The notes below the pieces were generated by a model that saw only the letters and a list, made by a program, of their open reading frames with translations, did not search any database and was not told the origin of the DNA. 64,000 nucleotides of DNA. It comes from Mobula hypostoma (Eukaryota). Where the stretch lies: contig NC_086097.1 in NCBI RefSeq assembly GCF_963921235.1, positions 19,222,001-19,286,000 on the forward strand, read 5' to 3'. This document shows positions 505-59,470 of the stretch, piece after piece. Each line of letters starts with the position of its first letter. The first letter of the stretch is position 1. The position numbers were made by a program, and so were the translations under genes.

Positions 505-1520
505 CTGTGCAGCACACACAAAATGCTGGAGGAACTCAGCAGGCCAGGCAGCATCTATGGAAAAAAGTACAGTTGATATTTCGGGCCGACACCCTTCAGC
601 AGGTCTGGAGAATTAAAAAAGATAAGGAGTCAGAGTTAGAAGGTGGGAGGAGGGAAGGAAGAAACACAAGGTGATAGGTGAAACTGGGAGAGGAGAGGAT
701 GAAGTAAAGAGCTGGGAAGAAGATGGGTGAAAGAGATAAAGGGCTGGAGAAGTGGGAATCTAAGAGGAGAGGACAGAAGGCTATGGAAGAGAGAAAAGAG
801 GGAGTAGCATCAGAGAGAGGTGATGGGCGGGCAAGGAGATGAGGTGAGAGAGGGAAAAGGGGATGGGGGGAAAAGAGATAGGGGAGGACCATTCCTGGAA
901 ATTTGAGAAATCGATGTTCATGCCATCAGGTGGGAAGCTGCCCAGACAGAATATAAGATGTTGCTCCTCCATCCTGTGTGTGGCCTCGTTGTGACAGTAG
1001 AGGAGGCCATGGATGGACATGCTGGAATGGGAAATAGAAGAGATGCAGTTGAAGGCTATGCTGATGGTGGTGGAAGGGAAGCCCCTTTCTTTGAAGAAGG
1101 AGGATATTTCCTTGGTTCTGGAATGAAAAGCTTCATCCTGAGAGCAGATGCAGTGGAGATGGAGAGATTGAGAGAAGGGGATGGCACTTTTACAAGCAAC
1201 AGGGTGGGAAGAGGTATGGTCCAGGTAGCTGTGAGAGTCAGTGAGTTTGTAATAGACATCAATAGATAAGCTGCCTCCAGAGACAGAGACAGAGAGATTG
1301 AGAAAGGGGAAGGAGGTGCCTGAAATGGACCAGGTAAATTTGAGGGCAGGTTGGAAGTTGGAGGCAAAATTGATGAAGTCGATGAACTCGGCATTGACGC
1401 AGGAAGCAGCACCAATGCAGTTGTCGATGTAGCATAGGAAAAGTGGGGGAGTGATGCCAGTGTAGGCTTGGAACATAGACTGTTCCACGTAGCCAACGAA
1501 AAGTTGGGATCCATGCAGAG
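505..1520 (-). mobile_element. Penelope-like element remnant (RT/thumb region, internal deletion, terminal repeat)
   Basis: ORF 781..1488 has PLE RT motifs (FLCYIDNCIG, LKFTWSIS, FPFLNLSV, YYKLTDSHSYLDHTSSHP, IPFSQSLHLHCICS) fused to the GIY-YIG tail (EEQHLIFCLGS..PDGMNIDFS). Terminal repeat with decayed hammerhead at about 571-607. Confidence 0.9.
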
Positions 1521-2224: not shown

Positions 2225-3215
2225 AAGCTAACACATATAAAGTGCTGGAGGGACTCAGGAGATCAGACAGCATCAATGGAAATGAATGACTATTCAATGT
2301 TTCAGGCTGAGTCACTTTGTCAGGACTGGAAAGAAAGGGGAGAGAAGCGAGAATAAGGAGGAGGGGAAAGGGGAAGGAGTACAGGCTGCAAGGTGATGGG
2401 TGAAGCCAGGTGAGTGGAGAGGAGGGCAATGAAGTAAGAAGTTGGGAACAGGTGGAAACAGCAAAGTTCTGGAGAAGAAGGGATCTGATAAGAGAAGAAA
2501 GTAGACCATGGGAGAATGGTGTAATGCCCTTGTTCATTTTTTTACTGTTATGCTGTACGCATTTCATTTTGACATCTCTGTAAGAGCAATTTGTTCTGTT
2601 TTCATGCTTGTTTGGGTTCCTGTTGAAGATAAGAGAGGAAATGAAGAGAGAAGATGCAAGGCAGAACCAGTTGTACCGTACAATCCGGTGGGAGACATGT
2701 TTGTTTGAGATGGATTGCGAGCAACTTTCCGAAGGTTTGTTTTCATGTTGACCGAGGACCCAGCGCGTGAGTGACAGAGAAGTTGAAGATGAGCCCCAAC
2801 TTGTGCACATTTGACTGTTTAATTAGAATGGGCCCTTTTCTTTTTGTTATTCTTTACTAACCCTTTAGTTAACATTCATAAATATAATTTCTTTAATCAT
2901 ATGCAGTGTACTGTCTTGTTATTTCGTGGCATTAATTTGTAACAGGAGAGCAAATGACACAGTGTCCACACAAACCGGGGTTTGGGGTGGGATGAAGCGC
3001 GCCTCGATCTCACGAGTTTGGCAGGGCTGGAGGTTGTCTTCTCTCGACTTATGCAGCCAAAGAAACCAGGGTGTTTCAAAGGGAAAGGGGTGTGGCACCA
3101 GGGGGAGGTGAGAAGAGAAAAGGTAAGGGGGGAGCCAGAGTGGGGAGTGGAAGGAGGGAAGAGGAAGGGGGGAAATTTATTGGAATTTAGAGAAGTCGAT
3201 GTTCATACTTGTTAA
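2225..3215 (-). mobile_element. Penelope-like terminal-repeat remnant, interrupted by a solo LTR
   Basis: Similar to 505-920 (gctggagg..ctcag..cagcatc, GA-rich tract, agaagtcgatgttcat). The sequence resumes after 3078. Confidence 0.75.
2520..3078. mobile_element. Solo LTR (LTR retrotransposon or ERV)
   Basis: TGTAATGCCCT...AGGGTGTTTCA inverted termini; flanks AATGG/AAGGG (5-bp TSD with one mismatch); cleanly interrupts a PLE. Confidence 0.7.
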
Positions 3216-3499
3216 ATAGGTGGAGCTGGAGTAGTAGGGTTCCGGCCCGAAACGTTGACCGATCTTTTCCATGGATGCTGCCTGACCTGCTGAGTTCCTC
3301 CAGCGTGTTGTGAGTGGAGCTGGAGTAGGCCACTCAGCCCTTCAATCTGCACCACTCCTCAGCAACTGATTGCAAAATTAACTCCGCAATCCTGCCCATG
3401 TCCCAGTAACCAGTTGGGATTAAATTTCATTTGACACTACTCTATACAACTTTCCATCTGATCTACACCCAGTGCATCCTTACAAAGTCTCTGAGTGGA

Positions 3500-5385: not shown

Positions 5386-6419
5386 CCAATATTTGTTGCT
5401 TATTTATTACTGTAATATTATTATTATATTTTTTCTTTGTATTTACTGTGAATGTCTGCAAGAAAATGAATCTCAGGGTTGTATGTGGTGACGTATATGT
5501 ACTTAGATAATAAATTTACTTTGAAATTTGAACCTTGAATTTTGAAACAATATTATAACCATTTGGACTGAGACTCTTCAAGAATTCTTCCCTCTTCCTT
5601 TCCACTCCCGATGAAAGGTCTCAACATGAAACATTGACTGTTTACTCCTCTCATAGACGCTGCCTGATTTGCCAAGAGCCCCCAGCATTTTGTGAGTGTT
5701 GTCTGGATTTTCAGCATCTGCAGAATCCCATGTAGGTAATAACCTTATCATAATGTTCTGCTGTCTCCACCCACCCTCTTAAACTGAATGATAGATGTTG
5801 GCTGCATCCCTTTCTGAAACCAATTAACCCCTGTCAGTGCAGGTAAATCCACGAGCCTTTGAGACGCTCCTCGAGATTAGACCTGGAAACAAGATATTTG
5901 TGTTCTGTAGTGTTTCAGATCGGATTCTTGTAGTGTACAGTTGGTTGTATCTCCTTGTAACTACCTATACACGGGCCAACGGTCAACCTAATAACTGGAA
6001 TCAGAAACATTTCCACTTCAGGGAACCTTAATATCGTACTTCAGCCTCAGTGAAGACCTTTGACTGTTCTGCTCCAGAAAGCAAAACGTCTGTCAGGATC
6101 CTTCAGAGGTGCCTCAGCTTTTGGTATTTCCTTCCTACTGGCTCCTTCTTCGCAAAGAGACTCACAGACCATTTCCCGTGACAGTATTGAACACAGCACT
6201 TTCACTTTGCTCATGGTGAAAATGGTGAAGGAAGACGTATATCGAACTGATATCAGAAGAGGCACAAAGGCCGTGAAATAGTCTGAGGTTTTGGACTGTG
6301 TGTGAGCTTTCATACACACCCTGATATGAACCACTTCCACTTCAGGCTGGAGGTTCTCTTTGGTAAAAGTGCATTGCCTTTAAGGGAAGAAAACATAGAC
6401 AAATCTGTCTTGATTTGTT

Positions 6420-6970: not shown

Positions 6971-7428
6971 TCAGAACCAGTTCTGATCACAGTAAATGGC
7001 AGGCAATCTCAAGAGACCTAGTGGCCTACTGCTGAGCTGAAACTATGTTTCACTAGCTGGGTTAGTAAGTGCCTCCACTTCAATCAAAGTCCATTATTTC
7101 CTTCCAAACACATTTCCCACTGTAACCTCGGTATGATTATTTGTTTCCCTGAAGTTTATTTATATGCTTACGTAAACTCATGAAGGCGTGGGTGGGATTT
7201 ATTCATCTTAATAAGAAGACCGAAAGTGGAAGAAATAGCAGAGCATTAAGGAGAAAGGATCTCATCCTCAGTATACTGATTCAAGATTCAAGATTGTTTA
7301 ATGTCATTTCCTGTACACAAATGTAAAGAACAAAATAATTGTTACTCCAGATCCAATGCAGCATGTACAAAAACTCAATAAGATAAAGAACACAATAATA
7401 AAAAACACAACAGATATAAATATATCAA

Positions 7429-8493
7429 GCAACACACATCAAAGTTGCTGGTGAACGCAGCAGGCCAGGCAGCATCTCTAGGAGGAGGTATAGTCGACGT
7501 TTCAGGCCGAGACCCTTCGTCAGGCCTAACTGAAGGAAGAGTGAGTAAGAGATTTGAAAGTGGGAGGGGGAGAGGGAGATCCAAAATGATAGGAGAAGAC
7601 AGGAGGGGGAGGGATGGAGCCAAGAGCTGGACAGGTGATTGGCAAAGGGGATATGAGAGGATCATGGGACAGGAGATCCGGGAAGAAAGACGGGGCGGGG
7701 AGGGGGGGAGAACAGAGGATTGGCAAGGGGTATAGTCAGACGGACAGAGGGAGAAAAAGGAGAGTGAGAGAAAGAATGTATGTATAAAAATAAATGACGG
7801 ATGGGGTACTAGGGGGAGGTGGGGCACTAGCGGAAGTTAGAGAAGTCGATGTTCATGCCATCAGGTTGGAGGCTACCCAGACAGAATATAAGATGTTGTT
7901 CCTCCAACCTGAGTGTGGCTTCATCTTTACAGTAGAGGAGGCTGTGGATGGACATGTCAGAATGGGAATGGGACGTGGAATTAAAATGTGTGGCCACTGG
8001 GAGATCCTGCTTTCTCTGGCGGAAAGAGCGTAGGTGTTCAGCAAAGCGGTCTCCCAGTCTGCGTCGGGTCTCGCCAATATGTAGAAGGCCACATCGGGAG
8101 CACTGGACACAGTATATCACCCCAGCCGACTCACAGGTGAAGTGTCGCCTCACCTGGAAGGACTGTCTGGGGCCCTGAATGGTGGTAAGGGAGGAAGTGT
8201 AAGGGCATGTGTAGCACTTGTTCCGCTTACAAGGATAAGTGCCAGGAGGGAGATCAGTGGGGAGGGATGGGGGGGACGAATGGACAAGGGAGTCACGTAG
8301 AGAGCGATCCCTGCGGAAAGCAGAGAGGTGGGGGAGGGAAAGATGTGCTTAGTGGTGGGATCTCGTTGGAGGTGGCGGAAGTTGCGGAGAATAATATGTT
8401 GGACCCAGAGGCTGGTGGGGTGGTAGGTGAGGACCAGGGGAACCCTATTGTTAGTGGGGCGGCGGGAGGATGGAGTGAGAGCAGATGTGCGTG
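7429..8493 (-). mobile_element. Penelope-like element, young 5'-truncated copy with GIY-YIG endonuclease and terminal repeat
   Basis: ORF 7827..8153 reads FTCESAGVIYCVQCSRCGLLHIGETRRRLGDRFAEHLRS. Flanked by AAATATATCAA at 7418-7428 and 8494-8504 and inserted in a Rex1 3' tail. Confidence 0.93.
7491..7528 (-). ncRNA. Minimal type I hammerhead ribozyme in PLE terminal repeat
   Basis: Minus strand reads TAGGC CTGACGA A GGGT-CTCG-GCCT GAAA CGTC GACTA: intact core, one stem I mismatch. Confidence 0.8.
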
Positions 8494-8789
8494 AAATATA
8501 TCAATTAGCTCATATACATAGATTATAGAAGTGTACAGAAAGTGTACAGAGAGATTACAGAAGTGTCCCTAGTGTACAGAAAGTGGCTCTAGGGACAGGA
8601 GTGTTTGTACATAAAGTGACTGACAGGAAATGATGAAGTGATAGTGGTGGGGGTGTTGACCGGCCTTGCTGCTTGGGGAAAGTAATGGTTTTTTGAGTCT
8701 GTAGGTCCTGGTGTGGTTGCTGAGTAGGACAATCAGCCCATGACCAGGATGGGTGGGACCCTTCACGATATTGCCGGCCTTCTTCTGGC

Positions 8790-18887: not shown

Positions 18888-19045
18888 AAATGCCGGAGGA
18901 ACTCAGCAGCCCTGCTGAAGGGTCTCGACCCAAAACACCAACTGTTTATTCCTTTCCATAGACGCTGCCTGACTTGCTGAGTTCCTCCAGCATTTTGTGT
19001 GTATGACTCTGGATTTCCAACATCTGGAGAATCTCTAGTGTTTAT
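18888..19045 (+). mobile_element. PLE terminal repeat with a short inverted duplication
   Basis: aaaatgccggaggaactcagca (18888-18908) is inverted against tgctgagttcctccagcatttt; decayed hammerhead between them. Confidence 0.75.
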
Positions 19046-25090: not shown

Positions 25091-26429
25091 CTAGTGAAAT
25101 GGAATTAATGGGAAAGTGGTTCAGGTCGTCCTTAAAAGAGCATGGGTCACAGCTTACGCATGTCTGAAATAAATTGTCACTTACTTTGAGAGTCATTGGT
25201 TCTCAACTCTACCTGAGACCAAGCAAGCTTCCTGAGAAAACCTTGTCTACAAGTGCAGTGAACAAAACATTTCTGCTCGATTTGTTGTTCAGAAAGCTGT
25301 TTCCATTTCACCCGATATTGATTTTTTTCATTGTCTAACAGCTTGAGGTCCGTAGCACTACACACAAGATCAATAAATATTGCCACAAACCCATCACAAA
25401 GCTTTTCCAGATGAACTGACACTCTATGAAACAATGTGTGCTGTGGATCAGACGTCAATCTTCTCCTCTGGGTCACGGACGACTTGCTTCAACTCTGGTT
25501 TTGTGGGTTCCGAGGTGGCTAATGAAGTGAATATTGTTCTCGTGCTCAGCTGGGGCACCCTTTAGCTGATGGCTTGGATGGTTGGTATTTGGTGAAGTGG
25601 GCCACTCCTTCTACCATTTATGAAAGACTTCTGTGTACCCCTGATGCACGGTCTGCAGGCTCCCAATACCATCCCGAATATTCCTTAACACAAGAGGTTC
25701 TGCATACGCTGGAAGACTTGAGCAACACACACAAAATGCTGCAGGAACTCAGCAGGTCAGGCAGCATCTCTGGAGGGGAATAAATAGTTGATGTTTCAGA
25801 TTGAGACCCTTCATCTGGACTGGAAAGGAAGGGGGCAGAAGCCAGAATACAAGAGATTCTGTAGATGCCAGAGGAATATCCCGTCCTGACTTTTGAACAG
25901 TTATGGGTCAGGAGTCCCAGAAGTCAGTGGGCATGTTGCAGTTCATATGGAGGCATTGGACACATCCTTGGACTTATTTCCTAGTACACCTGCTTTATCT
26001 CTTCCTGTGATAAAGCCCATTTCAGGAGTCTGGTGTCAGGCCGAATTACTTGATCTAGCCCAACAGAGCTAATTGAGTACAACTGAGACCTCAGTGCAGG
26101 ACCTTAGCCTGGGAGAGAATGAGCTTCTGGTGAGAACCTGGGGAGACCAGTCTGAAGGTGGTCCCCAAAGAGAGATCTATATCTTAGAGGAAGTCATCAC
26201 CAGGGTCCTCCTCACCACCTCCTCTCAGCAGCCAACGAGCTGCTCTCTGGATCGCAGACACATAAACACATGAAATTCTGTAGGTGCTGAAAGTCCAGAG
26301 TAACATGTACAAAATGCTGGAGGAACTTAGCAGATCGAACAACATCTATGGAGGGGAATAAACAGTCGATGTTTCATGCCAAGACCCCTCACCAGGACTG
26401 ATGGACTGAACTGCTGAGTCAGAAAAGGC

Positions 26430-30830: not shown

Positions 30831-31631
30831 ATAGAACATTCTGATCACATTCTCCACAGTTCTTTATCTGTCTTAAGTACTTACCTTATACTTCAGTAAT
30901 CAATAGTAAGTAAAGCCTTTTCTAAATCTGCTAGAGGAACTCAGCGGATCAGGTAGCGTCAGTGGAGGGGAATAAACAATCAATATCCTTGGGCCAAGTT
31001 CCTTCATCTGGCCTGAGAGATGGGGGGAGATTGCTCAAGGGGATATAGGGACAGAGATAAAGGGGATCAGAAGTCCAGCCTTTTCACACGGAGGGTGGTG
31101 GGCATTTGCAACAGGCTGCTAGAGGAAGTGGTAGAGGTGGGTACAATTAAATGACATTTGGATTCATGGATATGAACAGTTAAAGAGGTCCAGGCCAAAT
31201 ATAGGCAAATGAAATGATCTTAGGTGAACAACTTGGATGGCATGGACTATATAGTTTAAAGGGGCAGTTTCCGTACTGAATCACTATGATCCTGTGACTC
31301 TATGACTATTTCTCAGGCATCAGTGACAGGAAAATTGTCCTGATGAAGGGTCACAGCCTGAAACAATGACTATTCCTCTCCATAGATGCTGCCTGACCAG
31401 CTGAGTTCTTCCAGCATTTTGTGTGTGTTACTCACCTCCACTTCTTGGTCTCCAGTGGGTAGCGGAGTATACTGCAGATATTTATGAATATTCAGACTTT
31501 CCTGAGATTAAGGTACCCGGGTTAAGTTCAGGAGAGTGGAGCCAGGGTAGAAGGTCAGCCCTGATGTTATGGAACAGCAGGGCAAAGGTGAGGGGCCGAA
31601 TGGTGCACTTTTCTTTCCAATGTGTTTCATT

Positions 31632-32280
31632 CTACGCTCTGTCTGTCAGAGAAAGCAGGATCTCCCAGTGGCCACACATTTTAATTCCAACATCCCATTC
31701 CTATTCTGATATGTCTATCCACGGCATCCTCTACAGTAAAGATGAAGCTACACTCAGGTTGGAGGAACAACACCTTATATTCCGCCTGGATAGCCTCCAA
31801 CCTGATGGCATGAACATCGACTTCTCTAACTTCTGCTAATGCCCCACCTCCCCCTCGTACCCCATCCGTTATTTATTTATATGCACACATTCTTTCTCTC
31901 TCTCTCCTTTTTCTCCCACTGTCCCTCTGACTATACCCCTTGCCCATCCTCTGGGTTTCCCCCCCTCCCCCTTTTCCTTCTCCCTGGGCCTTCTGTCCCA
32001 TGATCCTCTCATATCCTTTTTGCCAATCACCTGTCCAGCTCTTGGCTCTATCCCTCCCCCTCCTGTCTTCTCCTATCATTTTGGATCTACCCCTCCCCCT
32101 CCCACTTTCAAATCTCTTACTAACTCTTCCTTCAGTTAGTCCTGACGAAGGGTCTCGGCCCGAAACGTCGACAGTACCTCTTCCTAGAGATGCTGCCTGG
32201 CCCGCTGCATTCACCAGCAACTTTGATGTGTGCTGCTTGAATTTCCAGCATCTGCAGAATTCCTCGTGTTTGCGTGTTTC
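31632..32280 (+). mobile_element. Penelope-like element, 5'-truncated, same family as 7429-8493
   Basis: SHSYSDMSIHG..EATLRLEEQHLIFRLDSLQPDGMNIDFSNF followed by the terminal repeat. Confidence 0.92.
32139..32172 (+). ncRNA. Minimal type I hammerhead ribozyme
   Basis: GTC CTGACGA A GGGT-CTCG-GCCC GAAA CGTC GAC: core CUGANGA/GAAA/UH intact, predicted cleavage after C32169. Confidence 0.85.
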
Positions 32281-33179
32281 ATTCTGTTCTCTGATATCCT
32301 TGGCTACAAAAAGACACCTGATTCCCTGTCCTACCTGTACAAAGTTGAAGCCATATATGAGTCTCTGCCAGGGCTCTGGTGCATGCAGTGTACAACAGAT
32401 GCCAAGAATTTGGCCTCCCCATGGCTACACCTCCCTGCAGAACACACTACCCCACATTCTGCAGCACTTTCTGGCCTGTCACACCCACCAAAGCTTCAGA
32501 AAGCCCGACGTTTAAGTTTGGAATTGTTCTGAAGACTTATCTGCTGAAGGACTGCGTCCATTTCTTTCGTGAATGCCTCTGAGGACCACAGATGAGGAAT
32601 ACTGAGCCTCACCATGGCAGGTGCCAGTGAAAGAAAGGGGGAGCCCAGCAGGGTGAGACTACCCGATGAACAAGAGAAGAATGGTGTACATGTAGTGCCC
32701 TGAGACGTAAAACTATACAGCACTGATGTCTGTGCCAACCATGGTGCCAATTTAAACTACATGTCTATTGTAATCAGTTTTTTTCCTCCATTCTCTGCTC
32801 CCCCAACCCCACTCCATCTGACTCTCAGTTTCTCACTTAATTTGTCTATCTCTCATCCATCCTCTGGAGTCTCCCAACTCCATCTCTATTCCAATGCACC
32901 ACCTGTGCAACCAGTCGGTCATCTTACAACCTCCCCGTTAATTCACCAATCACCTTGGACTTCTGTCTCACCACCAATCCCCCTTCCCTCCCCTCTCTCA
33001 CTGTTGATGCAGGGTTTTGACCAAAAAATTCAATAATTCTTTTCCTCCTTCAGATGCTGCTCAGCCTACTGAGTTCTGGATATATACTAGAATGAGCAGG
33101 GCATAGAGGGATATGGATTGAATGCAGGCAAGTGGGATTAATATAGATCGGAATAAAGGTTTACACAGACACAGTGGAC

Positions 33180-33900
33180 AAACCAATCTCCTCTTTGCCT
33201 CCCTCAGTATCCTGGGTTTGGATTCGATTAGGCCCTGTTGACTATTCACCTTAATGTTTTTCAAAGCACCCAACACCTGCTCCTTCATAATATTGACATG
33301 CCCTAGAATATCAACATCACCTTCCCTGCTCTCCCTATAAGCAGTATTCTTTTCCATGGTGAATATCAATGAGAAGATCTCACTTAGGATTCGCCCTCAA
33401 CAATTTTTCCTCCCACTTTCTCCAGATTCGAGGGGTGGTCATGGGCACTCGCATGGGCCCCAGCTACGCTTGCTTTTTCGCTGGCTATGTAGAACAGTCC
33501 ATGTTCGAAGCCTTCCCCGGAAATGCTCCCCAATTCTTCCTTCACTACATTTCTGAATAAGCTAACATCATCTCTTAGAATATGGAATATTACAGCACAG
33601 TAAGGTCCTTCAGCCCATGATGTTGAGCTGACCTTTTAACTGTCCATTCCATATCATCTTGTAAACCTCTATCAAGTCACCTCTCATCCTCTGCTCCAAA
33701 GAGAAAAGCTGTAGCTCACTCAACAAATTCTCTTAAGTCATGCTCTCTAATCCAGGCAGTATCCTGGTAAATCTCATCCGCAGCTCCTCTAAAGCAACTA
33801 CATTCTTCCTACAGTGAGGGGACCAGAATTGAATATGATGTGCCAAGTCTGGTTTAACCGAGGTTTCACAGAGCTGCAACATTACTTCATGAAGCCACTG
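33180..33900. mobile_element. Cluster of CR1 (-) and PLE RT (+, about 33385-33550) fragments
   Basis: LALNNFSSHFLQIRGVVMGTRMGPSYACFFAGYVEQSMF (PLE RT); CR1 IQFWSPHCRKNVVALEELRMRFTRILPG. Confidence 0.8.
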
Positions 33901-34717
33901 AAGTTTCTCGAACTTTGCCATTCGTGTCTTTCATCCTCACAGGAACATGGTGGCCTCTGAAGAGCTGGTCTTTAAAGCATTCCCTGCATGTTCAATCTGG
34001 ATTTACACCCAGACAGAGACTCCAGTTCTTCATAAACAAAAGAAATTCTGCAGATGCTGGAAATTCAAAGCAACACACACAATGCTGGAGGAACTCAGCA
34101 GATCAGGCAGCATCTATAGAAGTGAATAAACAGTCAATGTTCAGTTATTTTCTATTACTGTTATAATTAGTGTTCTCTGCAGTTTAGCACTTTCATCCAA
34201 GGTCCTGTCTCATTCATACCTACGACAATCTTAAAGCTTACAAAATTATGATCAGTGTTATCAAAATGCTCCCCACTGAAACTTCCATCTCCTGGACAAA
34301 CTCTTTTCTCAATACAAGTCTAGTACAATCCCTTCCTTAGTTTGACTATCTACATATGGTTTCAGGACATCCTCCTAGGGACAGCTAACAAATTCTGTCC
34401 CAATTAGTGCCCCAATTGTCCCAGTCATTTATATTCCCATGAAAGTCCAGCCATGACATTGATCTAATAACTAATTCAAAAATAACCAGTATCACACCCT
34501 GCATTCACTCAGACCTGTTCCACTGAATCAGACTGGATTCACAATTCAAGTTTATTTTTCATGTGTACATTGAAACATACATAGACTATAAACTGAGGAC
34601 TTGAACTCACAGGACATAAGGTACACCATGGCTGATACCCACATAACAAATCGCCTTTGTGTCTCCTGTGGGCTGTCATATCTCTAAATACTTTCTGCAA
34701 TGGGACCATTCAATACA

Positions 34718-35120: not shown

Positions 35121-35658
35121 GATCAATAAGAACAATCAGCAAGAACGGTGAGTCAGCACACAGAGAGCAGGTGCAGCGGCTAACGGACTGGTGCAGAGCC
35201 AACAACCTGCCTCTGAATGTGAGCAGAACAAAAGGGATGGTTGCTGACTTCAGGAGGACACGGAGCGACCACTCTCCGCTGAACATCGACAACTCCTCAG
35301 TAGAGATCGTTAAGAGCACCAAATTTCTTGGTGTTCACCTGGCAGAGAATCTCACCTGATCCCTCAACACCAGCTCCATAGCAAAGAAAGCCCAGCAGCA
35401 TCTCTACTTTCTGCGAAGGCTGAGAAAAGTCCATCTCCCACCCCCTATCCTCACCATATTCTACAGAGGTTGTACTGAAAGCATCCTGAGCAGCTGCATC
35501 ACTGCCTGGTCCCTGCAGCGGATAGTGAGGTCAGCTGAGAAGATCGTCGAGCTCTCTCTTCCCGCCATTACAGACATTTACGCCACACGCTGCATCCGCA
35601 AAGCAGACAGCATAATGAAGGACGCCACGCACCCCTCATACAAACTCTTCTCCATCCT

Positions 35659-35771
35659 AGCAACATACATCAAAGTTGCTGGTGAACGCAGCAGGCCAAG
35701 CAGCATCTATAGGAAGAGGCGCAGTCGACGTTTCAGGCCGAGACCCTTCGTCAGGACTAACTGAAGGAAGA
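35659..35771 (-). mobile_element. 113-bp PLE terminal fragment flanked by a 38-bp direct duplication
   Basis: GACGCCACGCACCCCTCATACAAACTCTTCTCCATCCT at 35621-35658 and 35772-35809; the insert matches about 7428-7540. Confidence 0.93.
35723..35758 (-). ncRNA. Minimal type I hammerhead ribozyme
   Basis: Minus strand reads AGTC CTGACGA A GGGT-CTCG-GCCT GAAA CGTC GACT: perfect 4-bp stem I and intact core. Confidence 0.85.
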
Positions 35772-36821
35772 GACGCCACGCACCCCTCATACAAACTCTT
35801 CTCCATCCTGCTATCTGGCAAAAGGCACCGAAGTATTCGGGCTCGCACAACCAGACTATGTAACAGTTTCTTCCCCCAAGTCATCAGACTCCTCAATACC
35901 CAGAGCCTGGACTGACACCAACCTACTGCCCTCTACTGTGCCTATTGTCTTGTTTATTATTTATTGTAATGCCTGCATTGTTTTGTGCACTTTATGCAGT
36001 CCTGGGTAGGTCTGTAGTCTAGTGTAGTTTTTGTGTTGTTTTACGTAGTTCAGCGTAGTTTTTGTATTGTTTCATGTAGCACCATGGTCCTGAAAAACAT
36101 TGTCTCATTTTTACTGTGTACCGTACCAGCAGTTATGGTCGAAATGACAATAAAAAGTGACTTGACTTGACTTGAATATGCACAGCTCCTTAAAAAAAAC
36201 CTTTGGACATATCAACAGCACCTGAGAGGAAATTAATACAATTGATTTAATCTCATTATAGGACTCTGACCACAAAACCTCAGTGAAATACAATCATTCC
36301 TCAATTCCAGCCTTCTAGATTGATGTAATTTTGTTTTGAAACTCATTTTGTGAAATTAGTTTCAAGAATGAAATTAGCCTGTCAGTGTATTGTGTACACA
36401 AGCCTTTGCACACAGCTCTTCTCTGCCACAGAAACAATAGGTCATAATCAGCGCTGCCAATCAAACATTAAAAACACTCATCAGTGAACATCCACTCCTT
36501 CCCACAAGCATCCTGCATGAAGCACTTTGTACACATTCCTGCACCATATTCTGCTGTTGGATAGTTCTGCATGGACTCTTTATTGATCTGCCTGTCAAAG
36601 ACCTCAAACGCAAAGTTATTACTCGATTATTCAAGGGAGGAGAAATGCCTGAGAGCAGCTAACGCAGATTTAACTGTAAAACCTCCTAAGGATCTTCTCA
36701 AATAAACTTGTCTCTGGCTGCCTAAATAGGCAATAGGCTGGCCATACTTTAACTGAAAGGCAGCACACACAAAAAAGTGCTGCAGTTCAGACAGCATCTT
36801 ATGACTTTAACCGAAGGAGGA

Positions 36822-37135: not shown

Positions 37136-37634
37136 TTTGTGAAGCGAGAGTGGCAGGATGGAAGAGATGCTTAGGAAGAGAATTGCAGAGTTTGGAAGCT
37201 TTTCCAAGGAAGGCACAGTTGCCAATGCTAGAGCAGATATGTTGGGCAGAATCGGGGACAGGGTATCTCACCAGTGGCGAAAATAAAATAGTGCAGATGC
37301 TGGAAATCTGAAATAAAACCAGAAACACTCAGCAGGTTAGGTATGTGTAGGGAGTAACAGGCAATGTTTTGGGTCAAAAGCCTTTCATCAGAAGCATGAG
37401 TTGTTTCTGTACCATGAGTACTGTCCAACCTGCTGAGGACTGTGAGCATTTAATTTGAGTGTTTAAAAAACACTCAAGAACAAAGAGAATATATCCAATA
37501 GGGTAAAACCAAATAATAATAAATCAAAGTCCAAAGTTCAAAGTAAATTTATATCAAGGTACATATATGTCACTGTATACAACCCTGAGATTCATTTTCA
37601 TGTGGGCATGCTTAATAAATTTATAGAATAATAG

Positions 37635-40683: not shown

Positions 40684-41716
40684 CATATCTGCCTGAATGG
40701 TAGGAGAAGGACAGCCAAGTGATCCGATTTACCCAAATGCGGTCTGGACATGGAAGGGTAGGCATTCCTATCATAGTATATTAGTGGACTAGTATGCTGG
40801 TATTGCTGGTGCTACGGGTTGTATGCTGATGGTAATTGGACATTGGTTGCAGTCTCCACCTATGATTTGAAATGCATTGGGATGGACTGGTCCTTGTCTG
40901 GAGACAGTATCATTCAGTATGACGAGCACCTGATTATAGTTGGCTGCTGGTGGTATGTAAACTGTGGTCAGGATTACAGATGAGAACTCCCTAGGTAAAC
41001 AGAATGGACAGCATTCTAAGTTTTCCAGGTGTTGGGAGGACATGAGTTTGACAAATCCACCACATCAGAGCACCACTGAGAATTTATCATGAAGCACACA
41101 CCTCCTCCTTTTGTGTTTTCTGAATGAGCAGTTTGGTCCATTCTATAAATCGGGAAGCCTTCAGGTGTTATTGCTGTATCTGGAGTGCTGGGAGAAAGCC
41201 ACATCTCAGTCAGACATAGAATACAACAGCTTCTCATTTCTCTCCTATACAGTCATCATGCCCTCAGGTCCTTAATTTTGTTGTCAGCATTTGCCAACAA
41301 GATACTGGATAGAGGAGGCCTCATCCCGCTGTTTTAGCCTGGCTTGGAGTCCCTCCCTCCTGCCTCGCTTCCTGCCATGGCGATGAATCTTCGTCCCTTT
41401 AAGGGTGCCATGAGACCTGTAGATCATTAAGTTGATTGAAAAGTACATTGCTTAGAAGGAAATCACATGATGCAAATTGCAGTGAGAGTAATTCAAAAGA
41501 GCTGCATTTAAAAGTATATTTAGAAGTATTGTCTGCAGCCCACAAAATGTCACCGACAATCACCAGTGCCATCTGATGTCATATTAATACACAGATCATT
41601 AAAATTAACAGGACGTTCATTGGTTGCAGGAGCTTCATGAGGCCAATTGGAGAAGTTGAGGGTCACCAGGACAGCCACAGTTAGAATCGCAGTGAGAAGA
41701 ACATTAAATATTTTTC

Positions 41717-42718
41717 AAGCAACACACACAAAAAAATTGCTGGTGAACACAGCAGGCCAGGCAGTATCTCTAGGAAGAGGTACAATCGACGTTTTGGGCC
41801 GAGACCCTTAGTCAGGACTAACTGAAAGAAGAGCTAGTAAGAGATTTGAAAGTGGGAGGGGGAGGGGAGATCCGAAATGATAGGAGAAGACAGGAGGGGG
41901 AGGGATGGAGCCAAGAGCTGGACAGTTGATTGGCAAAAGGGATACGAGAGGATCATGGGACGGGAGGCCTAGGGAGAAAGAAAGGGGAGGGGGAAGCCCA
42001 GAGGATGGGCAAGGAGTATAGTGAGAGGAACAAAGGGAGAACAAAGAGAGAAAAAATGAGGAAAAGAAAAAAACCTTATAGTAAATAAATAAATAAAGGA
42101 TGGGGTACGAAGGGCAGGTGGGGCATTAACGGAAGTTAGAGAAGTCAATGTTCCTGCCATCAGGTTGGAGGCTACCCAGATGGAATATAAGGTGTTGTTC
42201 CTCCAGCCTGAGTGTGGCTTCATCTTGACAGTAGAGGAGGCCGTGGATAGACATATCAGAATGGGAATGGGACGTGGAATTAAAATGTGTGGCCACTGGG
42301 AGATCCTGCTTTCTCTGGCGGACAGAGCGTAGGTGTTCAGCGAAACAGTCTCCCAGTCTGCGTCGGGTCTCGCCAATATATAGAAGGCTGTATCAGGAGC
42401 ACCGGACGCAGTATATTACCCCAGCCGACTCACAGGTGAAGTGTCGCCTCACCTGGAAGGACTGTCTGGGGCCCTGAATGGTGGTAAGGGAGGAAGTGTA
42501 AGGGCATGTGTAGCACTTGTTCCGTTTACAAGGATAAGTGCTGGGAGGGAGATCGGTGGGAAGGGATGAGGGGGACGAATGGACAAGGGAGTCGCGTAGG
42601 GAGCGATCCCTGCGGAAAGCAGAAAGAGGGGGTGGGGGAAGATGTGCTTAATGGTGGGATCCTGTTGGAGGTGGCAGAAGTTCCAGAGAATTATATGTTG
42701 GACCCGGAGGCTGGTGGG
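41717..42718 (-). mobile_element. Penelope-like element, 5'-truncated, GIY-YIG plus terminal repeat
   Basis: Highly similar to 7429-8420; hammerhead core mutated (CTGACTA, AAAA). Confidence 0.92.
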
Positions 42719-45700
42719 TCTCAACATTATCTCCTTGTTTTTATATTTTATTCCCCTTGAAATAAACGCCAACCTTGCATCTGCCTTCTTTACCACAGAC
42801 TCGACCCGTAAATTAACCTTCTGGGAGTCTTGTACGGGGACTCCTAAGTCCCTCTGGCACCTCTGATGTTTGAACCTCTTTCCCATTTAGGTAATACTCC
42901 GCACTACTGTTCCTTTTACCAAAATGCATTATCATACGTTTCCCAACGCTGTATTACATCTGCCACTGTTTTGCCCATTCTAACAATTTGTCTGAGTCAA
43001 ATTGTCTGCTGCAATCGCATTGCTTCCTCAGCACTATCCACCCCTCCAGCTATCTTTGTATCATCCACAAACTTCACCACAAAGCCATCAATTCCATTAT
43101 CTAAATTATTGACAAACAATGTGAAAAGTAATGGTCCAATACTGATCCCTGAGGAACACCACTAGTTACTGGCAGCCAACCAGAAAAGGCCCCTTTATTC
43201 CCACTCACTGCTTCCTGCCTGTCAGCCATTCCTCAATCCATGTTAGTATCTTTCATGTTACGCCATAGGATTTTACCTTGTTATGCAGTCTCATGTGTGG
43301 CACCTTATCAAATGCATTCTGAAATCCAAGTAAATGATATCCACTGTTTCTCCTGTGTCCACCCTGCTTGTTACTTCCTCAAAGAACTCTAACAGATTTG
43401 TCAGGCAATAATTCCCTTCACAGAAACCATGCTGACTTTGACTTACTTTATCATTAGTCTCCAAGTACCCCAAAACTTCATCCTTAATAATAGACTCCAA
43501 CACTTTCCCAACCTCTGAGGTTAGGCTAACAGGCCTATAATTTCCTTTCTTTCGCCTTCCTGCCTTCTTAATGTCTGGAGCGGCTTTTGCAATTTTCCAG
43601 TCCTCTGGGACCATTCTTGAAAGATCATGACCAATGCATCCATTATCTCTTCAGCAAACTCCCTCAGGACTCTGGGATGTAGTCCACCTGGTCCAGGAGA
43701 CTTATCCACCTTAAGACATTTCAGTTTGCCTAGCATTTTTTCCTTTGTAATAGCAATGGCACTCACTCCTGTTCCCTGACACTCATGGACCTCTGGCACA
43801 TTGCTAGTGTCTTCCACAGTGAAGACAGATGCAAAGTACCCATTAACTTCATCTGCCTTTCTTGGTCCCCATTACTACCTCACCAGAATCATTTTCCAGT
43901 GGTCCAATATCAAGGCTCACCTCCCTTTTACTGTTGATATAACTGAAAATGCTTTCAGTATCCTGCTTTATATTATTGGCCAGATTGCCCTCATATTTCA
44001 TCTTCTCCCTTTTTATGGCTTTTTAATTGCCTTTTGTTGAATAATTTTAGCTTCCCAATCATCCAATTTCCCACTCACTTGCCCTTTCCTTGGCTTTTAT
44101 GCAGTTCTTAAATTCCGTTGTCAGCTGTGGTCACCTACCCTTGCCATTTGAGAACCTCTTCTTCTGTGGGATATAATTATTCAGCGCGCTGTGAACTATT
44201 CCCAGAAACTTCAGCCATCTCTGCTCTGCTGTCATCCCCACCCATATCCTCCTCCAATCCACCTGGGCAATCTCCTCTCTCATGCCTCTGTAATTCCCTT
44301 TATTCCATTGTCATACTGATACATATGACTTATGCTTCTCCCTCTCAAACTGCAGAATAAATTTTATCACACTATTATCACTGCTTCCTAAGGGTTCCTT
44401 TGCGTTCAACTCCCTAATAAGATCTGGGTTATTACACAGCATCCAATCTAAGATAGCCTTTCCCTGAGTAGGCTCAAGCACAAGCTACTCTAAAAAGCCA
44501 TTGTGTAGGCATTCAACAAATTTGCTCTTCTACGATTTGATACCAACCTGATTTTCCCAATCCCCTTGCATATTGAAGTCCCCCAATACAATTGTTGCAT
44601 TACCCTTATTACATGCCTTTTCCAGCTCCCTTTGCAATCTCAACCCCACATCTTGGCTACCATTTGGAGGCCTATATATGATTCCCACAATGGTTTTATT
44701 ACCCTTACAGTTTCTTAACTCCACCCACAAAGACTCAACATTCTCTGACCCTATGTCACTTCTTTCTAAAGATGTAGTTCCATCTCTTACCAACAGAGAC
44801 ACACCATCACCTATGCCTTCCTGCCAGTCCTCTCAATACAAAGTACGAGGGCTGATTGATAAGTTCATGGCCTAAGGTAGAAGGAGTCGATTTTAGAAAA
44901 TCTAACACATTTATTTTTCCTACATTTACACACTTAGTCCAGCGGTCATGGAGCATACGGATCCCGTCTTTGTAGAAGTCGGCATCTTGGACCTCCAGAA
45001 AGTGGTCCACAACAGGGGTGATTGATAAGGTCGTGGCCTAAGGTAGAAGATGAGTTATTAATTTCAAACTTTCTGCATAATCACGCAAAGAGTTGAACTG
45101 CACGTGCATGTAACGCGAGCTATATAACTCATTTCCTTCTACCTTAGGCCACGAACTTATCAATCACCCCTTGTATGTCCTTTGATGTTAAGCTCCCAAC
45201 TCTGGCCTTCTTTCAGACACAGCTCAGTGATGCCCACAACATCACACCAACCAATCTCTAATTGTGCCATGAGTTCATCCACCTTATTCTAACTGCTATG
45301 CACATTTAAATACAGCACCTTCAGTCCTGCATTCTTCACCCTTTTGAATTTTGCTTCTCTGGTACAATTTAACTTTTTGCTCTGTCTGCATTTGTACCCA
45401 ATCATTGACTTGTCCTTCCTTAATTCATCTTACATCCATCATCTACTTGTAAACCTGCCGGTTCATCTGAGCTCTACCATACTGGTTCACATCCCTCTGC
45501 CATATTAGTTTAAACCACTCCAAACAGCTCTAGTAAAGCTGCCAGCAAGAATATTGGTCCCCCTCCGATTCAAGTGCAACCCATCCTTTTTGTATAGGTC
45601 ACACCTGCCCCAGAAGAGATTCCAATGATCCAGAAATCTGAATCCCTGCCCCCTGCTCCAATTCTTCAGCCACATATTTATCTGCCACCTCATTCTATTC

Positions 45701-46260
45701 CTATCCTCACCGTTGTGTGGCACAGGCAGCAATCCCGAGATTACTACCCTTGAGGTCCTGCTTCTCAGCTTCCTTCCTAACTCTCTATGTTCTGTTTTCA
45801 GGACATCTTCCCTTTTCCTACCTATGTCGTTGGTACCAATATGTACCACGACTTCGAGCTGTTCACCCTCCCTTTTCAGGATATTGTGGACTCGTTCAGA
45901 AACATTGCAGACCCTGGTGCCTGGGAGGAAAACTCCCATCCGTGTTTTTTTTTCATTTCCACAGAGTCGCCTATCTGTCCCCCTGATACTGCTGCCATCC
46001 TCTTCCGTTCCCTACCCTCCTAAGCTACAGAACCAGACAGTGCCAGAGGCATGACTGCATTTGCTTCCCCATGGTAGGTACACCCTCACCCCCAATAGCA
46101 CTCAAAATAGAATACTTATTGTCGAAGGGACGGCCACAGGGGTGCTCTCCTTTATCTGATGTTCCTCCTTCCCTCTCCTGACAGTCACCCATTTACCTGT
46201 AGCCTTGGGGTGACTACCTCCTTGTTGCTCCTGTCTACCACATCTTCACTTACCTTAACA
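42719..46260 (-). mobile_element. CR1 LINE (ORF1 SGNH esterase, ORF2 endonuclease/RT), decayed
   Basis: ORF 45505..45939 has LPG..VVVHIGTNDIG..VVISGLLPVP..DGLHLNRRG; ESLWVELRN..GIIYRPP..LGDFN; KSPGPGGLHPRVLRE; GNYRPVSLTS. Confidence 0.95.
44846..45173 (-). mobile_element. Non-autonomous mariner derivative (MITE-like) inserted in CR1
   Basis: TA on both sides; about 40-bp TIRs (CGAGGGCTGATTGATAAGTTCATGGCCTAAGGTAGAAGGA); transposase C-terminus FYKDGIRMLHDRWTKCV; extra TIR copy at about 45013-45050. Confidence 0.9.
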
Positions 46261-52050: not shown

Positions 52051-52687
52051 TCTGGTCTATTAACATCCATTAAACAGACAAAATCTTAGTGTTTCTGACT
52101 GTTGATCTCACTGTGGCTGTTCTCACGATCTCCAGTTTCTCCAAAGGGCCTCAAGAAACTCCAATAACCAAGGGAACATCCTGTAATATTTAATGATTCA
52201 TGTATTATTATTAACTGGTCTCACCTTATCAGACATATTCCTTATGTTCTACCCATCCCTCCCTCACTTCCTCTGCTACTGAAAACCAACTGGTTTTCTC
52301 TTCTCCCCATTTCTGCCAAAAGGTCCTGAACCTGAATCATTGCTGTTGCACTTTCCACAGATGCTGCCTGACCTGCTGAGTGTCTCCAGCATTTTCTGTT
52401 TTGTATTCATTGCAGTCCAGCTTTTCAGAGATGCCATCCTTTCTTCCAGAAGTTAGTGATACCGCAGCAACATATCAGAGGTAGGTAAAACCAGGACTCA
52501 ATCCTAGGACCAGGGGAAGAGATTTAGATGAGTTATGAGGCAAACTATTTTTCACCCAGGAAAGAGTAAGTCCCTCACCTGGATTGTCAATGTTTCAGGT
52601 CAAGACTCTTCATCCAAAATGGCAACCGTCCATTTCTTTCCATAGATGCTGAGTTCCTGAGCTCCCCCTGAGTTCACTTACGAAGTT

Positions 52688-56829: not shown

Positions 56830-57520
56830 CGCTAAAAAAAAAGCATATCCTTACCTGGAAAGACTTTGGAAACCGTCACTTAGAAGATTCTGTAAAGATG
56901 TGGAAGAAGGATTTGTGGAAGAATGAGACTAAAATGGAAGTTTTTGGCCCAACACTAAGCAGTAAATGTGATGTAAATCTAATACTGCGCATCAGCTAGG
57001 TAACACCATCCCTACTTTAAATTATGGTGGAGGTAGCGTCATACTATGGAATGTTTTACAGCAGCAGGGACTGGAAATCTGGACAGGATTGATGGGAAGA
57101 TGAATGGAGTTAAGTACAGAGAGATCCTGGATAAAAATAAAACCTGCTAGCCTCTTCCAGAAAGCTTAAACTGATGAAGAAGTTTGTCTTTCAGCAGGAC
57201 AATTACCCATAGCATACTGCCAGAGCAACCACAGACTGGCTTCAAGTGAAGAGAATTGATGCATTTGAGTGGCCCATTCAGAGTCCTGATCTTAACCCAA
57301 TCGAACATCTCTGGCAAGACCTGAAGATTGCTGTGCACTGCAGCTCCCCAACTAACCTGACACAGCTTGAGCAATTTTGCAATGAGGAATGGGCAAATCT
57401 TACTCCATCACGTTGTGCAAAGCTAATAGAGATTTATTCAAGAAGATTGCTGACTGTAATAGTGTGGGAGGTGGTTCAACCAAGTATTGAGCAAAGGGGG
57501 ATGAATACTGTGGAACTGCT
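56830..57520 (+). mobile_element. Tc1-family transposase remnant
   Basis: MWKK..ETKME, YGGGSV, FQQDN, WPIQSPDLNPIEHLW motifs with stops and frameshifts. Confidence 0.92.
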
Positions 57521-57629
57521 GACATTTTAGTTTTTCATGCTTTACATTTTTCTCTTTTTTGGGGGCTCTACAGTGAAAAAAGGAACATGTGAAAAAGGAT
57601 CTGGTGCTTTCCCAGCCATATGACAAAAA

Positions 57630-57914: not shown

Positions 57915-59470
57915 AAACTCTTCTCGAGCTTCCAGTCAGGTACAGATATTGATTTTGACCAACATTTCAATGACAAACTCTGCCATCTTCTTCAGGGATG
58001 ATACCTGGGCATGCTTGGTCCAGTGATATTTATACCCACATAATCTGTCCCTCCTGATTGGTTAGTCCTCAGCCAACCAGTTTTCCACTCTCCCATCTTG
58101 TTTACAGTCAAATTCCAGTTTTTACGTAGAGGGAGACCTTTTCCTTTGTTAAAATTCTTTTCCTTGAATTTTATTTCAATAGCTTCCTTTACCAGGTGGT
58201 CCCAAAAAGCCATTGGCACGGCACAATAGTTTTGTGCCGTCAAAGTCAATCCTGTGGTCATTGTAAATGCAGTGTTCTACTACCACCGATTTCTCCAGGT
58301 AACCCAAACGGATGCACCTCCTGTGCTCCTTGATGCGGGTTTCCACCAGGTGCCCCATCTGGCCGATATACGCTGCTCCGCATTCACAGGGAATCCCGTA
58401 AGCGCAAGTCAACCTGAGTCCCAAGACATCTTTGACCCACCTAGGTTGTGATTTGAGCTTCTTTACTGGTTCGTGAATGGTATTATCTAGTATTTCCTCA
58501 GGATCCTGGCAATCCTTCCAGAATATGTGACAACATAAAGAAGGCAGCCGGTAGCAACGAGTTCCTCCTCATTGTTAGGTTTCCTGGTTTTTCTGTCAGC
58601 CCTTTTAAGGACCTGATTGATTTCCTTCACCTTGTAGCCATTCTGTAGGAATATCATGCGTGATTGTCTTATCTCCCAGTGGAGACTCCCTGGGTCCAAA
58701 ATAGTTTTTGCACAGTTAATCAAAGTAGGGAGAACCACTCTACGTTGGAAGGCATGATGGTGGTTGTTATTGTTGAGGTATAAGTCTGTGTGAGTAGGTT
58801 TCTGATAGACGCCATGTTGGAGGCTACCATCTGGCTTGTGTCATATTAGAATGTCCAGGAATGGGAAGCAACCATTCTTCTCCATCTCCATCGAATATTG
58901 AATGTTTGGATGAATGCTGTTCAGAACTGTTGGAGTGTCTGGAGTCTATGAGGCCACACTGCAAAGGTGTCATCGACGTATCTGAAGAAGCCTTTGGGAT
59001 GTAAGGGCGATGAACTCAGTCCCCTCTCCTCAAAGTCCTCCATGTAGAAATTAGCAAAAGCCAGTGACAAGGGCGATCCCACGGTCACTCCGTCCATTTG
59101 TTCATAGTCGCTCCCCTTATAGAGGCAGCACATCGATGTAAGGGTGTGTTCAAAGAAGGACAGTGGTATCCTTGCCAAACCTTCACTACGGGAGGACCAG
59201 GCTGTCCTTAATGGGAACTCTCATGACCAGAGGCACCACGGCAAAACTGATCATTATGTCCTCCAGGTTTATCATTTTAACAAAGTCAGTCGAATTTGTG
59301 AGGTGATGCTCACAGCCCCCAACAAGGGGAGACAACATGACCATTTAATGCTTAGTGAGGTAGTAAGTTGGAGAATCTATCCCACTGATGATAGGCCTCA
59401 GGGAGGAACCCTCTTTGCTTACTTTCGCGAGCCCATAACACCTTGGTGGTACCCATACCTGAGGCAGAAG
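57915..59470 (-). mobile_element. Second Penelope-like family: RT, GIY-YIG and decayed hammerhead
   Basis: YEQMDGVTVGSPLSLAFANFYMEDFE..FFRYVDDTFAVW; YGIPCECGAAYIGQMG..RIKEH; CTGAAGA..GAAA motif at 57957-57998. Confidence 0.92.

What the first reader, a model, noticed from the sequence alone, without database searches (positions are those of the whole stretch)
32139..32172. Dispersed minimal hammerhead ribozymes in the Penelope terminal repeat
Seen: stem I-CTGACGA-A-stem II-GAAACGTC-stem I has an intact core at 32139-32172 (+), 35723-35758 (-) and 7491-7528 (-). Decayed versions lie at about 571-607, 2295-2328, 5605-5640, 18910-18945, 25786-25822, 26363-26400, 31337-31372 and 41785-41820. Stem III is reduced to the palindrome ACGU. 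Established: PLE pseudo-LTRs carry minimal type I hammerheads whose short palindromic stem III is thought to work as a dimer. Inference: a transcript crossing this window meets intact cores on either strand, and the two minus-strand copies could pair and self-cleave a host intron or lncRNA.
Basis: partly seen in the sequence, partly recalled or inferred. Interest (0 to 1): 0.7.

Follow-up and report, generated by a model that had tools for sequence, protein, structure and literature searches.

The report
Penelope minimal hammerheads in dead copies
The small self-cutting RNA motifs are real, but they are the already described passengers of Penelope-like jumping genes, sitting here in shortened, slowly decaying copies in a ray-like fish genome, with no sign that they cut a host RNA.

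Summary
Observation confirmed: three intact minimal hammerhead cores (3 hits, chance mean 0.02; E 3e-10 to 6e-8 with a model built from other DNA), among 24 hits of the terminal repeat. They lie about 300 nt behind a GIY-YIG end with a CX4CxxC linker, in 5'-truncated Neptune-type Penelope-like copies with target-site duplications; the closest proteins are from rays. This is the min-HHR of Cervera and de la Pena 2014. The scan found it before, in this genome and in others. Stems covary across families, but dispersed copies show no excess core conservation (123/144 vs 203/240 stem/loop) and decay at CpG. The host-cleavage idea is weak: no host gene seen (7 of 308 ORFs hit Pfam, all transposon-type), the minus-strand pair is 28 kb apart, one partner has a broken stem I, and its dimer ranks worse than 94% of controls. 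One lead: a hairpin masks the core, and its upstream arm ends at a possible splice acceptor just before stem I, as in the Drosophila Penelope intron. Untested.

The parts
32139..32172 (+). minimal type I hammerhead, core 11/11, G10.1-C11.1, stem I 3 contiguous pairs; predicted cut after 32169
31634..32273 (+). 5'-truncated Neptune-type Penelope-like copy: end of GIY-YIG coding part (to stop at 31837-39), pyrimidine-rich 3' repeat, hammerhead, and the optional tail
32238..32273 (+). optional 3' 'tail' of about 35 nt, absent from the other three copies of the young family
   Evidence: tail described in PMC8557442, PMC11167929
31622..31633 (+). left copy of 12-bp target-site duplication (right copy 32274-32285)
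32128..32152 (+). alternative hairpin: upstream CCUUC and GUUA pair with the CUGACGAAGG box and mask the core; YAG at 32133-35 and 32137-39 after a 95-nt AG-free pyrimidine stretch
35724..35757 (-). minimal hammerhead, core 11/11, G10.1-U11.1, 5-bp stem I; best-preserved copy; predicted cut after 35727
35659..35771 (-). 113-nt solo terminal repeat inserted into a LINE reading frame, flanked by a 38-bp duplication (35621-35658 = 35772-35809)
7493..7526 (-). minimal hammerhead, core 11/11, U11.1, G-A mismatch at stem I pair 2; predicted cut after 7496
7429..8493 (-). 5'-truncated copy with thumb end, CX4CxxC linker and GIY-YIG end (ORF 7830-8348); 11-bp duplication at 7418-7428 and 8494-8504
41785..41818 (-). 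decayed hammerhead (G8 and G12 lost) that keeps the ACGUC palindrome and a pairing stem I 3' strand; in a copy spanning about 41714-42730
507..620 (-). older decayed terminal repeat, behind an RT/EN remnant (865-1503)
25719..25835 (-). older decayed terminal repeat with tail; others at 2225-2341 (-), 3219-3323 (+), 5590-5705 (+), 26297-26413 (-), 30909-31028 (-), 31331-31434 (+), 32986-33085 (+), 34065-34147 (-), 37299-37405 (-), 52287-52409 (+)

Best explanation
The motifs are the minimal hammerheads that Penelope-like elements carry in their terminal repeat. In the source element, which sits in a tandem or partial tandem, two hammerheads on one RNA (about 3 kb apart) pair through the ACGU palindrome and swapped stem I strands, probably helped by the element's own protein, and cut after GUC to process the precursor RNA (inferred from published work). 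Reverse transcription starts just 3' of the motif at one of two sites and often stops early, so many short copies carrying one hammerhead are scattered through the genome (shown by the shared 3' end, tail and duplications). These lone copies have no partner and decay neutrally; the three intact ones are simply young.
For: Four copies share one 3' end, 5' truncation and about 90% identity (551/602, 536/598, 540/598); duplications of 12, 11 and 38 bp in 3 of 4. The upstream ORF is 92% identical to a Mobula hypostoma protein and 84% to a Hypanus sabinus one; relatives carry GIY-YIG and RT. Architecture matches the published consensus, including the unpaired base between 9 and 10.1. In 107 distinct motifs from metagenome and viral contigs, 68 have a stem I of 3 bp or more against a shuffle mean of 10.3 (max 21), and 18 of 124 loci have a PLE protein hit; 51 length-matched motifs show covariation 0.603 vs 0.175, 0/500 shuffles. 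Among 16 of 21 window copies, non-CpG core identity is 123/144, non-CpG stem/loop 203/240, tail 545/624; core CpG 23/32, other CpG 64/96. In 45,380 contigs of run X1 changes fall on CpG sites, including catalytic G8 (6.8%) and G12 (8.7%) against 11.9-12.9% for other CpG guanines.
Against: No cleavage was measured. G8 changes less often than other CpG guanines in both runs with data (6.8% vs 11.9-12.9% in X1; 1.1% vs 3.1-9.0% in X15), which may be mild selection, T7-bearing subfamilies or an alignment-edge effect; these are depth-weighted contigs, not copy counts. The in-window test has 16 copies, 5 of 21 being dropped as too decayed or partial. PMC11167929 found the hammerhead dispensable for insertion in vitro, so its role in the element is itself open. 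No full-length element lies in the window and no genome is held.
Confidence: 0.86

Rival explanations
1. Lone copies on one long host transcript pair and cut it. The most workable version is not the pair named but the core of the 35724 copy cutting the decayed 41785 copy 6 kb away, since a half-site needs a core from one copy and only palindrome, GUC and stem I strand from the other.
For: 35724 core with the 41785 strand forms 5+5 stem I pairs, with a folding penalty of 7.4 kcal/mol, near the control median of 6.9 (68 of 107 control motifs used). Repeat sequence is present in contigs of a run guessed to be RNA (4,875 laid in X15).
Against: Named pair: penalty 15.7 and 18.4, worse than 94% and 100% of controls; loop-closure estimate 2e-8 M at 28 kb and 3e-7 M at 6 kb (a crude formula). 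In genomic context stem II has probability 0.02-0.04 in both minus copies. 7 of 308 ORFs of 65 aa or more hit Pfam, all transposon-type; small exons and lncRNAs would be missed. Published monomer inactive, dimer and trimer low; protein needed, no RNA-seq ends. X15 contigs show neither strand nor locus.
Confidence: 0.04
2. The ribozyme of this young family is gated: an upstream arm masks the core, and splicing at the AG just before stem I (or protein binding) removes the mask, so only the spliced element RNA can cut.
For: Masking duplex -11.3 kcal/mol; 3 of 106 control motifs reach it, 1.0% of shuffles, 0 of 255 other 23-mers of the same 3' repeat. Removing the arm from the 35724 copy raises stem I from 0.02 to 0.57 and stem II from 0.04 to 0.61. 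The commonest upstream variant (32130 C>T, 38% in X1) keeps the pair as U-G. Pyrimidine tract plus AG ending 2 nt before the core in 7 of 11 copies tabulated, an eighth off register. D. virilis Penelope intron ends at the 5' end of helix I. One of 3 ray gene models with this peptide starts where an acceptor at 32135 predicts (P0015).
Against: The whole 3' repeat is pyrimidine-rich, so tract and CCUUC may be chance; older families give only -5.7; no compensatory change seen; removing the arm does not rescue the 32139 or 7491 copies; the TACTAAC-like branch site is not fixed in the family (32123 A>G 39%, A>T 19%); the other 2 gene models do not fit; no loose end at 32136 or 32140 among the rows shown (471 rows hidden); the search in the other frame found nothing. 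The hairpin was noticed after the fact.
Confidence: 0.1
3. The motif is no longer a ribozyme even in the source element; it is kept as a binding or folding signal, or rides along as a parasite of the repeat.
For: Catalytic mutants did not affect insertion in vitro in the Anolis element; Naiads thrive without it and PMC8557442 raises parasitism; U11.1 is carried by a large subfamily (38.9% in X1 against 8.7% for the facing G).
Against: Core invariance with covarying stems across families (though my pattern fixed the core); G10.1-U11.1 also occurs in published motifs of cichlid, coelacanth and Xenopus; G8C/C3G rescue shown for the Anolis motif.
Confidence: 0.12

Closest known systems
Minimal hammerheads (min-HHR) of metazoan Penelope-like elements, Cervera and de la Pena 2014 (PMC4209133)
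   Same: CUGANGA-H, G...Y stem II, GAAA, palindromic 15.2-16.2, no helix III, short helix I, position in the terminal repeat, mostly lone dispersed copies; the Acropora Neptune motif has the same CUGACGAA-GGG start and CGUC end.
   Different: Stem II of 4 bp is at the short end; no cartilaginous fish in the paper's list of motifs (supplement file 1 and part 3 of file 2 not read).
Neptune-clade Penelope-like elements (Craig et al. 2021, PMC8557442)
   Same: C-terminal GIY-YIG with CX2-5CxxC linker, 5' truncation, inverted short copies, optional 30-40 bp tail.
   Different: No RT tree was built, so Nematis is not formally excluded; one copy has a 38-bp duplication, longer than the 8-10 bp in PMC3846280.
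PAc Poseidon element of Anolis (Frangieh et al. 2024, PMC11167929)
   Same: Hammerhead in the repeat, two 3' ends one tail apart.
   Different: Other clade; in PAc the ORF starts at stem II, whereas the start of this family's ORF could not be placed here.
Non-LTR retrozymes (bioRxiv 10.64898/2026.07.22.740005)
   Same: Type I hammerheads derived from PLE repeats; reported in one chondrichthyan.
   Different: Need two or more tandem units with complete motifs; none in this window.

Membership tests
Metazoan PLE min-HHR | Core CUGANGA, GAAA, UH | tested here: met
   11/11 in 3 of 21 copies scored
Metazoan PLE min-HHR | Unpaired base between 9 and 10.1 | tested here: met
   A32149 and equivalents; feature
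Metazoan PLE min-HHR | G10.1-C11.1 pair | tested here: met
   G-C in 32139; G-U in the two minus copies, a variant also in published motifs
Metazoan PLE min-HHR | No helix III; palindromic 15.2-16.2 | tested here: met
   ACGU at 32165-68
Metazoan PLE min-HHR | Short helix I closing the junction | tested here: met
   3 bp (32139) and 5 bp (35724); broken at pair 2 in the 7493 copy
Metazoan PLE min-HHR | Lies in the terminal repeat of a PLE | tested here: met
   300 nt behind the EN end in 3 of the 4 young copies; the fourth is a solo repeat
Metazoan PLE min-HHR | Covarying stems across families | tested here: met
   Shown in motifs from other DNA; window copies have one stem type and cannot show it
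Metazoan PLE min-HHR | Cleaves as a dimer, not as a monomer | not testable with these tools
   Only folding estimates
Neptune clade PLE | CX2-5CxxC linker before a C-terminal GIY-YIG | tested here: met
   CKRNKCYTC in ORF 7830-8348; GIY-YIG found in relatives P0007 (23.2 bits, above cut-off) and P0001 (20.9, below), not in the window ORF itself
Neptune clade PLE | RT phylogeny within Neptune rather than Nematis | not tested
   No tree built; both clades have the linker
Neptune clade PLE | Optional 30-40 bp tail and inverted truncated copies | tested here: met
   Tail score above the 99th percentile of random windows in 8 of 21 copies, the query copy included; inverted pairs at 9.5, 18.9 and 52.6 kb
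Non-LTR retrozyme | Two or more tandem units with complete hammerheads | tested here: not met
   Copies dispersed; nearest intact pair on one strand 28.2 kb apart
Host-domesticated intronic hammerhead | Core kept better than its flanks at a fixed locus | tested here: inconclusive
   No excess across copies; orthologous loci in other species not available

The most novel reading that the evidence does not exclude
The young ray Neptune-type family carries a splice-gated hammerhead: a built-in hairpin holds the core inactive in unspliced or read-through RNA, and an intron ending at the AG before stem I removes the masking arm. This would be a vertebrate counterpart of the Drosophila Penelope intron and would explain how a genome tolerates very many ribozyme cores in host transcripts.
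Probability: 0.1. Interest if true: 0.6.

Novelty: new member of a known kind. Interest (0 to 1): 0.15.

Why it matters
As it stands it adds a ray family to a kind described in 2014 and already noted by this scan. Its value is as material: a young, very abundant family (45,380 contigs laid in one run) in which the open question of what PLE hammerheads do can be tested. If the masking and splicing lead held, it would link two unexplained PLE features, the intron and the weak ribozyme.

Tried and rejected
Rfam search: no hammerhead family up to E=1, two chance snoRNA matches. Own-genome search: no genome held, so no genome-wide copy count. Raw-read runs X21 and X22: 0 reads laid, no test; 4 of 24 runs listed were laid. 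Lunse et al. (PMC5785218) not held; only its title was seen. Host gene search: 7 of 308 ORFs hit Pfam, all transposon-type; reading ALKBH8_N as a LINE C-terminal match is recalled, not from a call. U11.1 as a novelty: rejected, published motifs have it; the search for its kinetics gave 4 papers, listing only, none with 'U11.1'. U11.1 pairing with the extra A: about equal in isolation (-2.2 vs -2.5) but probability 0 in context. Stem I variants in the window as covariation: rejected, partners do not change. Open frame across the motif (31931-32515) as a gene: rejected, pyrimidine-rich DNA, no Pfam hit. In one search the 41785 piece was out of register; one search replaces it. Second-frame search for exonised peptides: none at E 0.1 among 21 candidates. 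No duplication found for the 41714 copy (best 7 bp, off the junction). Searches for a ray or shark PLE hammerhead in print: Penelope+hammerhead+ribozyme+shark gave 1 paper, where 'shark' is the name's image; for a vertebrate PLE intron: 4 papers, 3 listed, none by title or abstract on this. Most subscription papers and bioRxiv supplements are outside these searches.

Full report
1. Observation. 32139-32172 (+) has stem I, CUGACGA, an unpaired A, a 4-bp stem II with a CUCG loop, GAA, ACGU, C17 at 32169 and the closing strand. The core pattern has 3 hits, chance mean 0.02. A covariance model from 51 motifs found in public contigs gives E 3.3e-10, 5.1e-9 and 6.3e-8 for these three and 2.6e-4 for the 41785 copy. 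Rfam has no matching family. All 8 decayed copies exist; a profile search finds 24 hits and 0 in the reversed window. Each 'intact' copy has a stem defect: an A-A mismatch at stem I pair 4 in 32139, G-U at 10.1-11.1 in both minus copies, and a G-A mismatch next to the first pair in the 7491 copy.

2. What it is. The three intact motifs and the 41785 one belong to one young family. Three copies carry the end of a protein with a CX4CxxC linker and a GIY-YIG-type end, then 300 nt of pyrimidine-rich repeat, the motif, and a common 3' end about 70 nt after the cut site. They are about 90% alike. The peptide is 92% identical to a Mobula hypostoma protein and 84% to a Hypanus sabinus protein; longer relatives hit GIY-YIG and RT. 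So the DNA is most likely from a ray (inference) and the element is a Penelope-like retrotransposon of the Neptune type (linker as defined in PMC8557442; no tree built). Junctions fit retrotransposition: duplications of 12 bp (31622/32274), 11 bp (7418/8494) and 38 bp (35621/35772), none found for the fourth copy. The 32139 copy has the optional tail of about 35 nt, found above background in 8 of 21 copies. Head-to-head short copies at 9.5, 18.9 and 52.6 kb are also typical.

3. Selection. Across families the fold is real: of 127 matches with flanks in 124 loci, 107 are distinct, and 68 of them have 3 or more stem I pairs against a shuffle mean of 10.3. In the 51 of length 28, 82.8% of cells pair against 56.4% shuffled, covariation 0.603 against 0.175; related sequences inflate such figures, and my pattern fixed the core and two stem II pairs. 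Within the window the core is not spared: 123/144 (core, non-CpG), 203/240 (stems and loop), 545/624 (tail), 23/32 and 64/96 (CpG in and outside the core) over 16 of 21 copies. In run X1, changes in the motif sit mostly on CpG: G8 6.8%, G12 8.7%, others 9.2-12.9% (10 rows hidden). C11.1>T at 38.9% against 8.7% on the facing G points to a subfamily source with U11.1. Against my reading, G8 is somewhat lower than the other CpG guanines in X1 and in X15.

4. How it most likely works. Shown here: anatomy, position in the element, decay of lone copies. From papers: the S. mansoni monomer was inactive and dimers or trimers weakly active; the Anolis motif cut only with the element's protein, was not needed for insertion in vitro, and left no RNA-seq ends. 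Inferred: in a tandem source element two motifs pair through ACGU and swapped stem I strands and cut the precursor; short 3' copies spread single motifs that then decay. Confidence 0.86.

5. The host-cleavage idea. No host gene was seen (7 of 308 ORFs hit Pfam, all transposon-type), though small exons or a lncRNA would escape. The named pair is 28.2 kb apart. The folding penalty for the active dimer is 15.7 or 18.4 kcal/mol by which copy gives the core, against a control median of 6.9 (68 of 107 controls with a 3-bp stem I). These energies ignore tertiary contacts and serve only for ranking. A better partner for the 35724 core is the decayed 41785 copy 6 kb away (7.4), which keeps the substrate half. 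In context both minus copies fold away from the hammerhead. Probability about 0.04.

6. A lead. In the young family the 20 or so bases upstream pair with the CUGACGAAGG box (-11.3 kcal/mol; 3 of 106 controls, 1.0% of shuffles). For the 35724 copy, removing that arm lifts stem I from 0.02 to 0.57; it does not do so for the two copies with broken stems. The arm ends at YAG after a long AG-free pyrimidine stretch, and the D. virilis Penelope intron ends at the 5' end of helix I. One of three ray gene models with this peptide begins where that acceptor predicts. The repeat is pyrimidine-rich throughout, older families lack the strong hairpin, and no spliced read was seen, so I give it 0.1.

7. Comparison and verdict. 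It is a member of the metazoan PLE min-HHR kind by every feature testable here; cleavage was not testable. It is not a retrozyme array. A ray example was not found in the papers searched, but four earlier notes of this scan report the same kind, one in this genome; none lay near this window and none held the splice or masking idea. Interest 0.15.

Papers seen: PMC4209133 main text parts 1-2 of 4, supplement file 2 parts 1-2 of 3 and a term search (file 1 not readable); PMC11167929 parts 1-2 of 4; bioRxiv 10.64898/2026.07.22.740005 part 1 of 5 and passages, no supplements; PMC8557442, PMC6765202, PMC3846280, PMC6155905 passages only; Lunse et al. title in a reference list only; the papers as listings. 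Hammerhead numbering and the loop-closure formula rest on my own knowledge.

Noticed in passing
window 35621-35809: The 113-nt solo repeat is flanked by a perfect 38-bp duplication, much longer than the 11-12 bp of its sisters and about the length of the optional tail; its 5' end falls at the base of the masking hairpin. It interrupts a LINE frame that resumes on the other side.
   Followed up: partly
window 58179-58568 (-): Remnant of a second PLE type: GIY-YIG-like peptide (YGIPCECGAAYIGQ) without the Cys linker, Poseidon-like by recall; no Pfam hit, no similarity to other window copies.
   Followed up: no
window 43294-46011 (-): LINE remnant with a GDSL esterase-like frame (45508-46011), an endonuclease piece (44533-44832) and an RT piece (43294-43650); CR1/L2-type by recall. 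The 41714-42730 PLE copy abuts its broken 3' end.
   Followed up: no
window 57213-57527 (+): DDE_3 transposase fragment.
   Followed up: no
window 33369-33557 (+) and 865-1503 (-): PLE RT remnants; the second lacks the part between thumb and EN end.
   Followed up: no
proteins P0003, P0004, P0009, P0014, P0016: Ray gene models named mucin-2, DIPK1C, chitinase domain protein 1, STARD3NL and CoA synthase isoforms consist partly or wholly of PLE-derived sequence: annotation artefacts or exonisation.
   Followed up: partly
window 32167-32172: The cut site lies inside a second, longer palindrome (GUCGAC) that can form a competing inactive 6-bp dimer; it appears in the co-fold of the 7491 copy.
   Followed up: partly
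window about 8150-8158 (-) and 42450-42458 (-): Strong donor-like site CAG/GTGAGG in the EN-coding part, some 620 nt upstream of the possible acceptor.
   Followed up: no
L038, L046, L099: Loci from other DNA with two motifs close together on opposite strands, the inverted arrangement described for PLEs.
   Followed up: no
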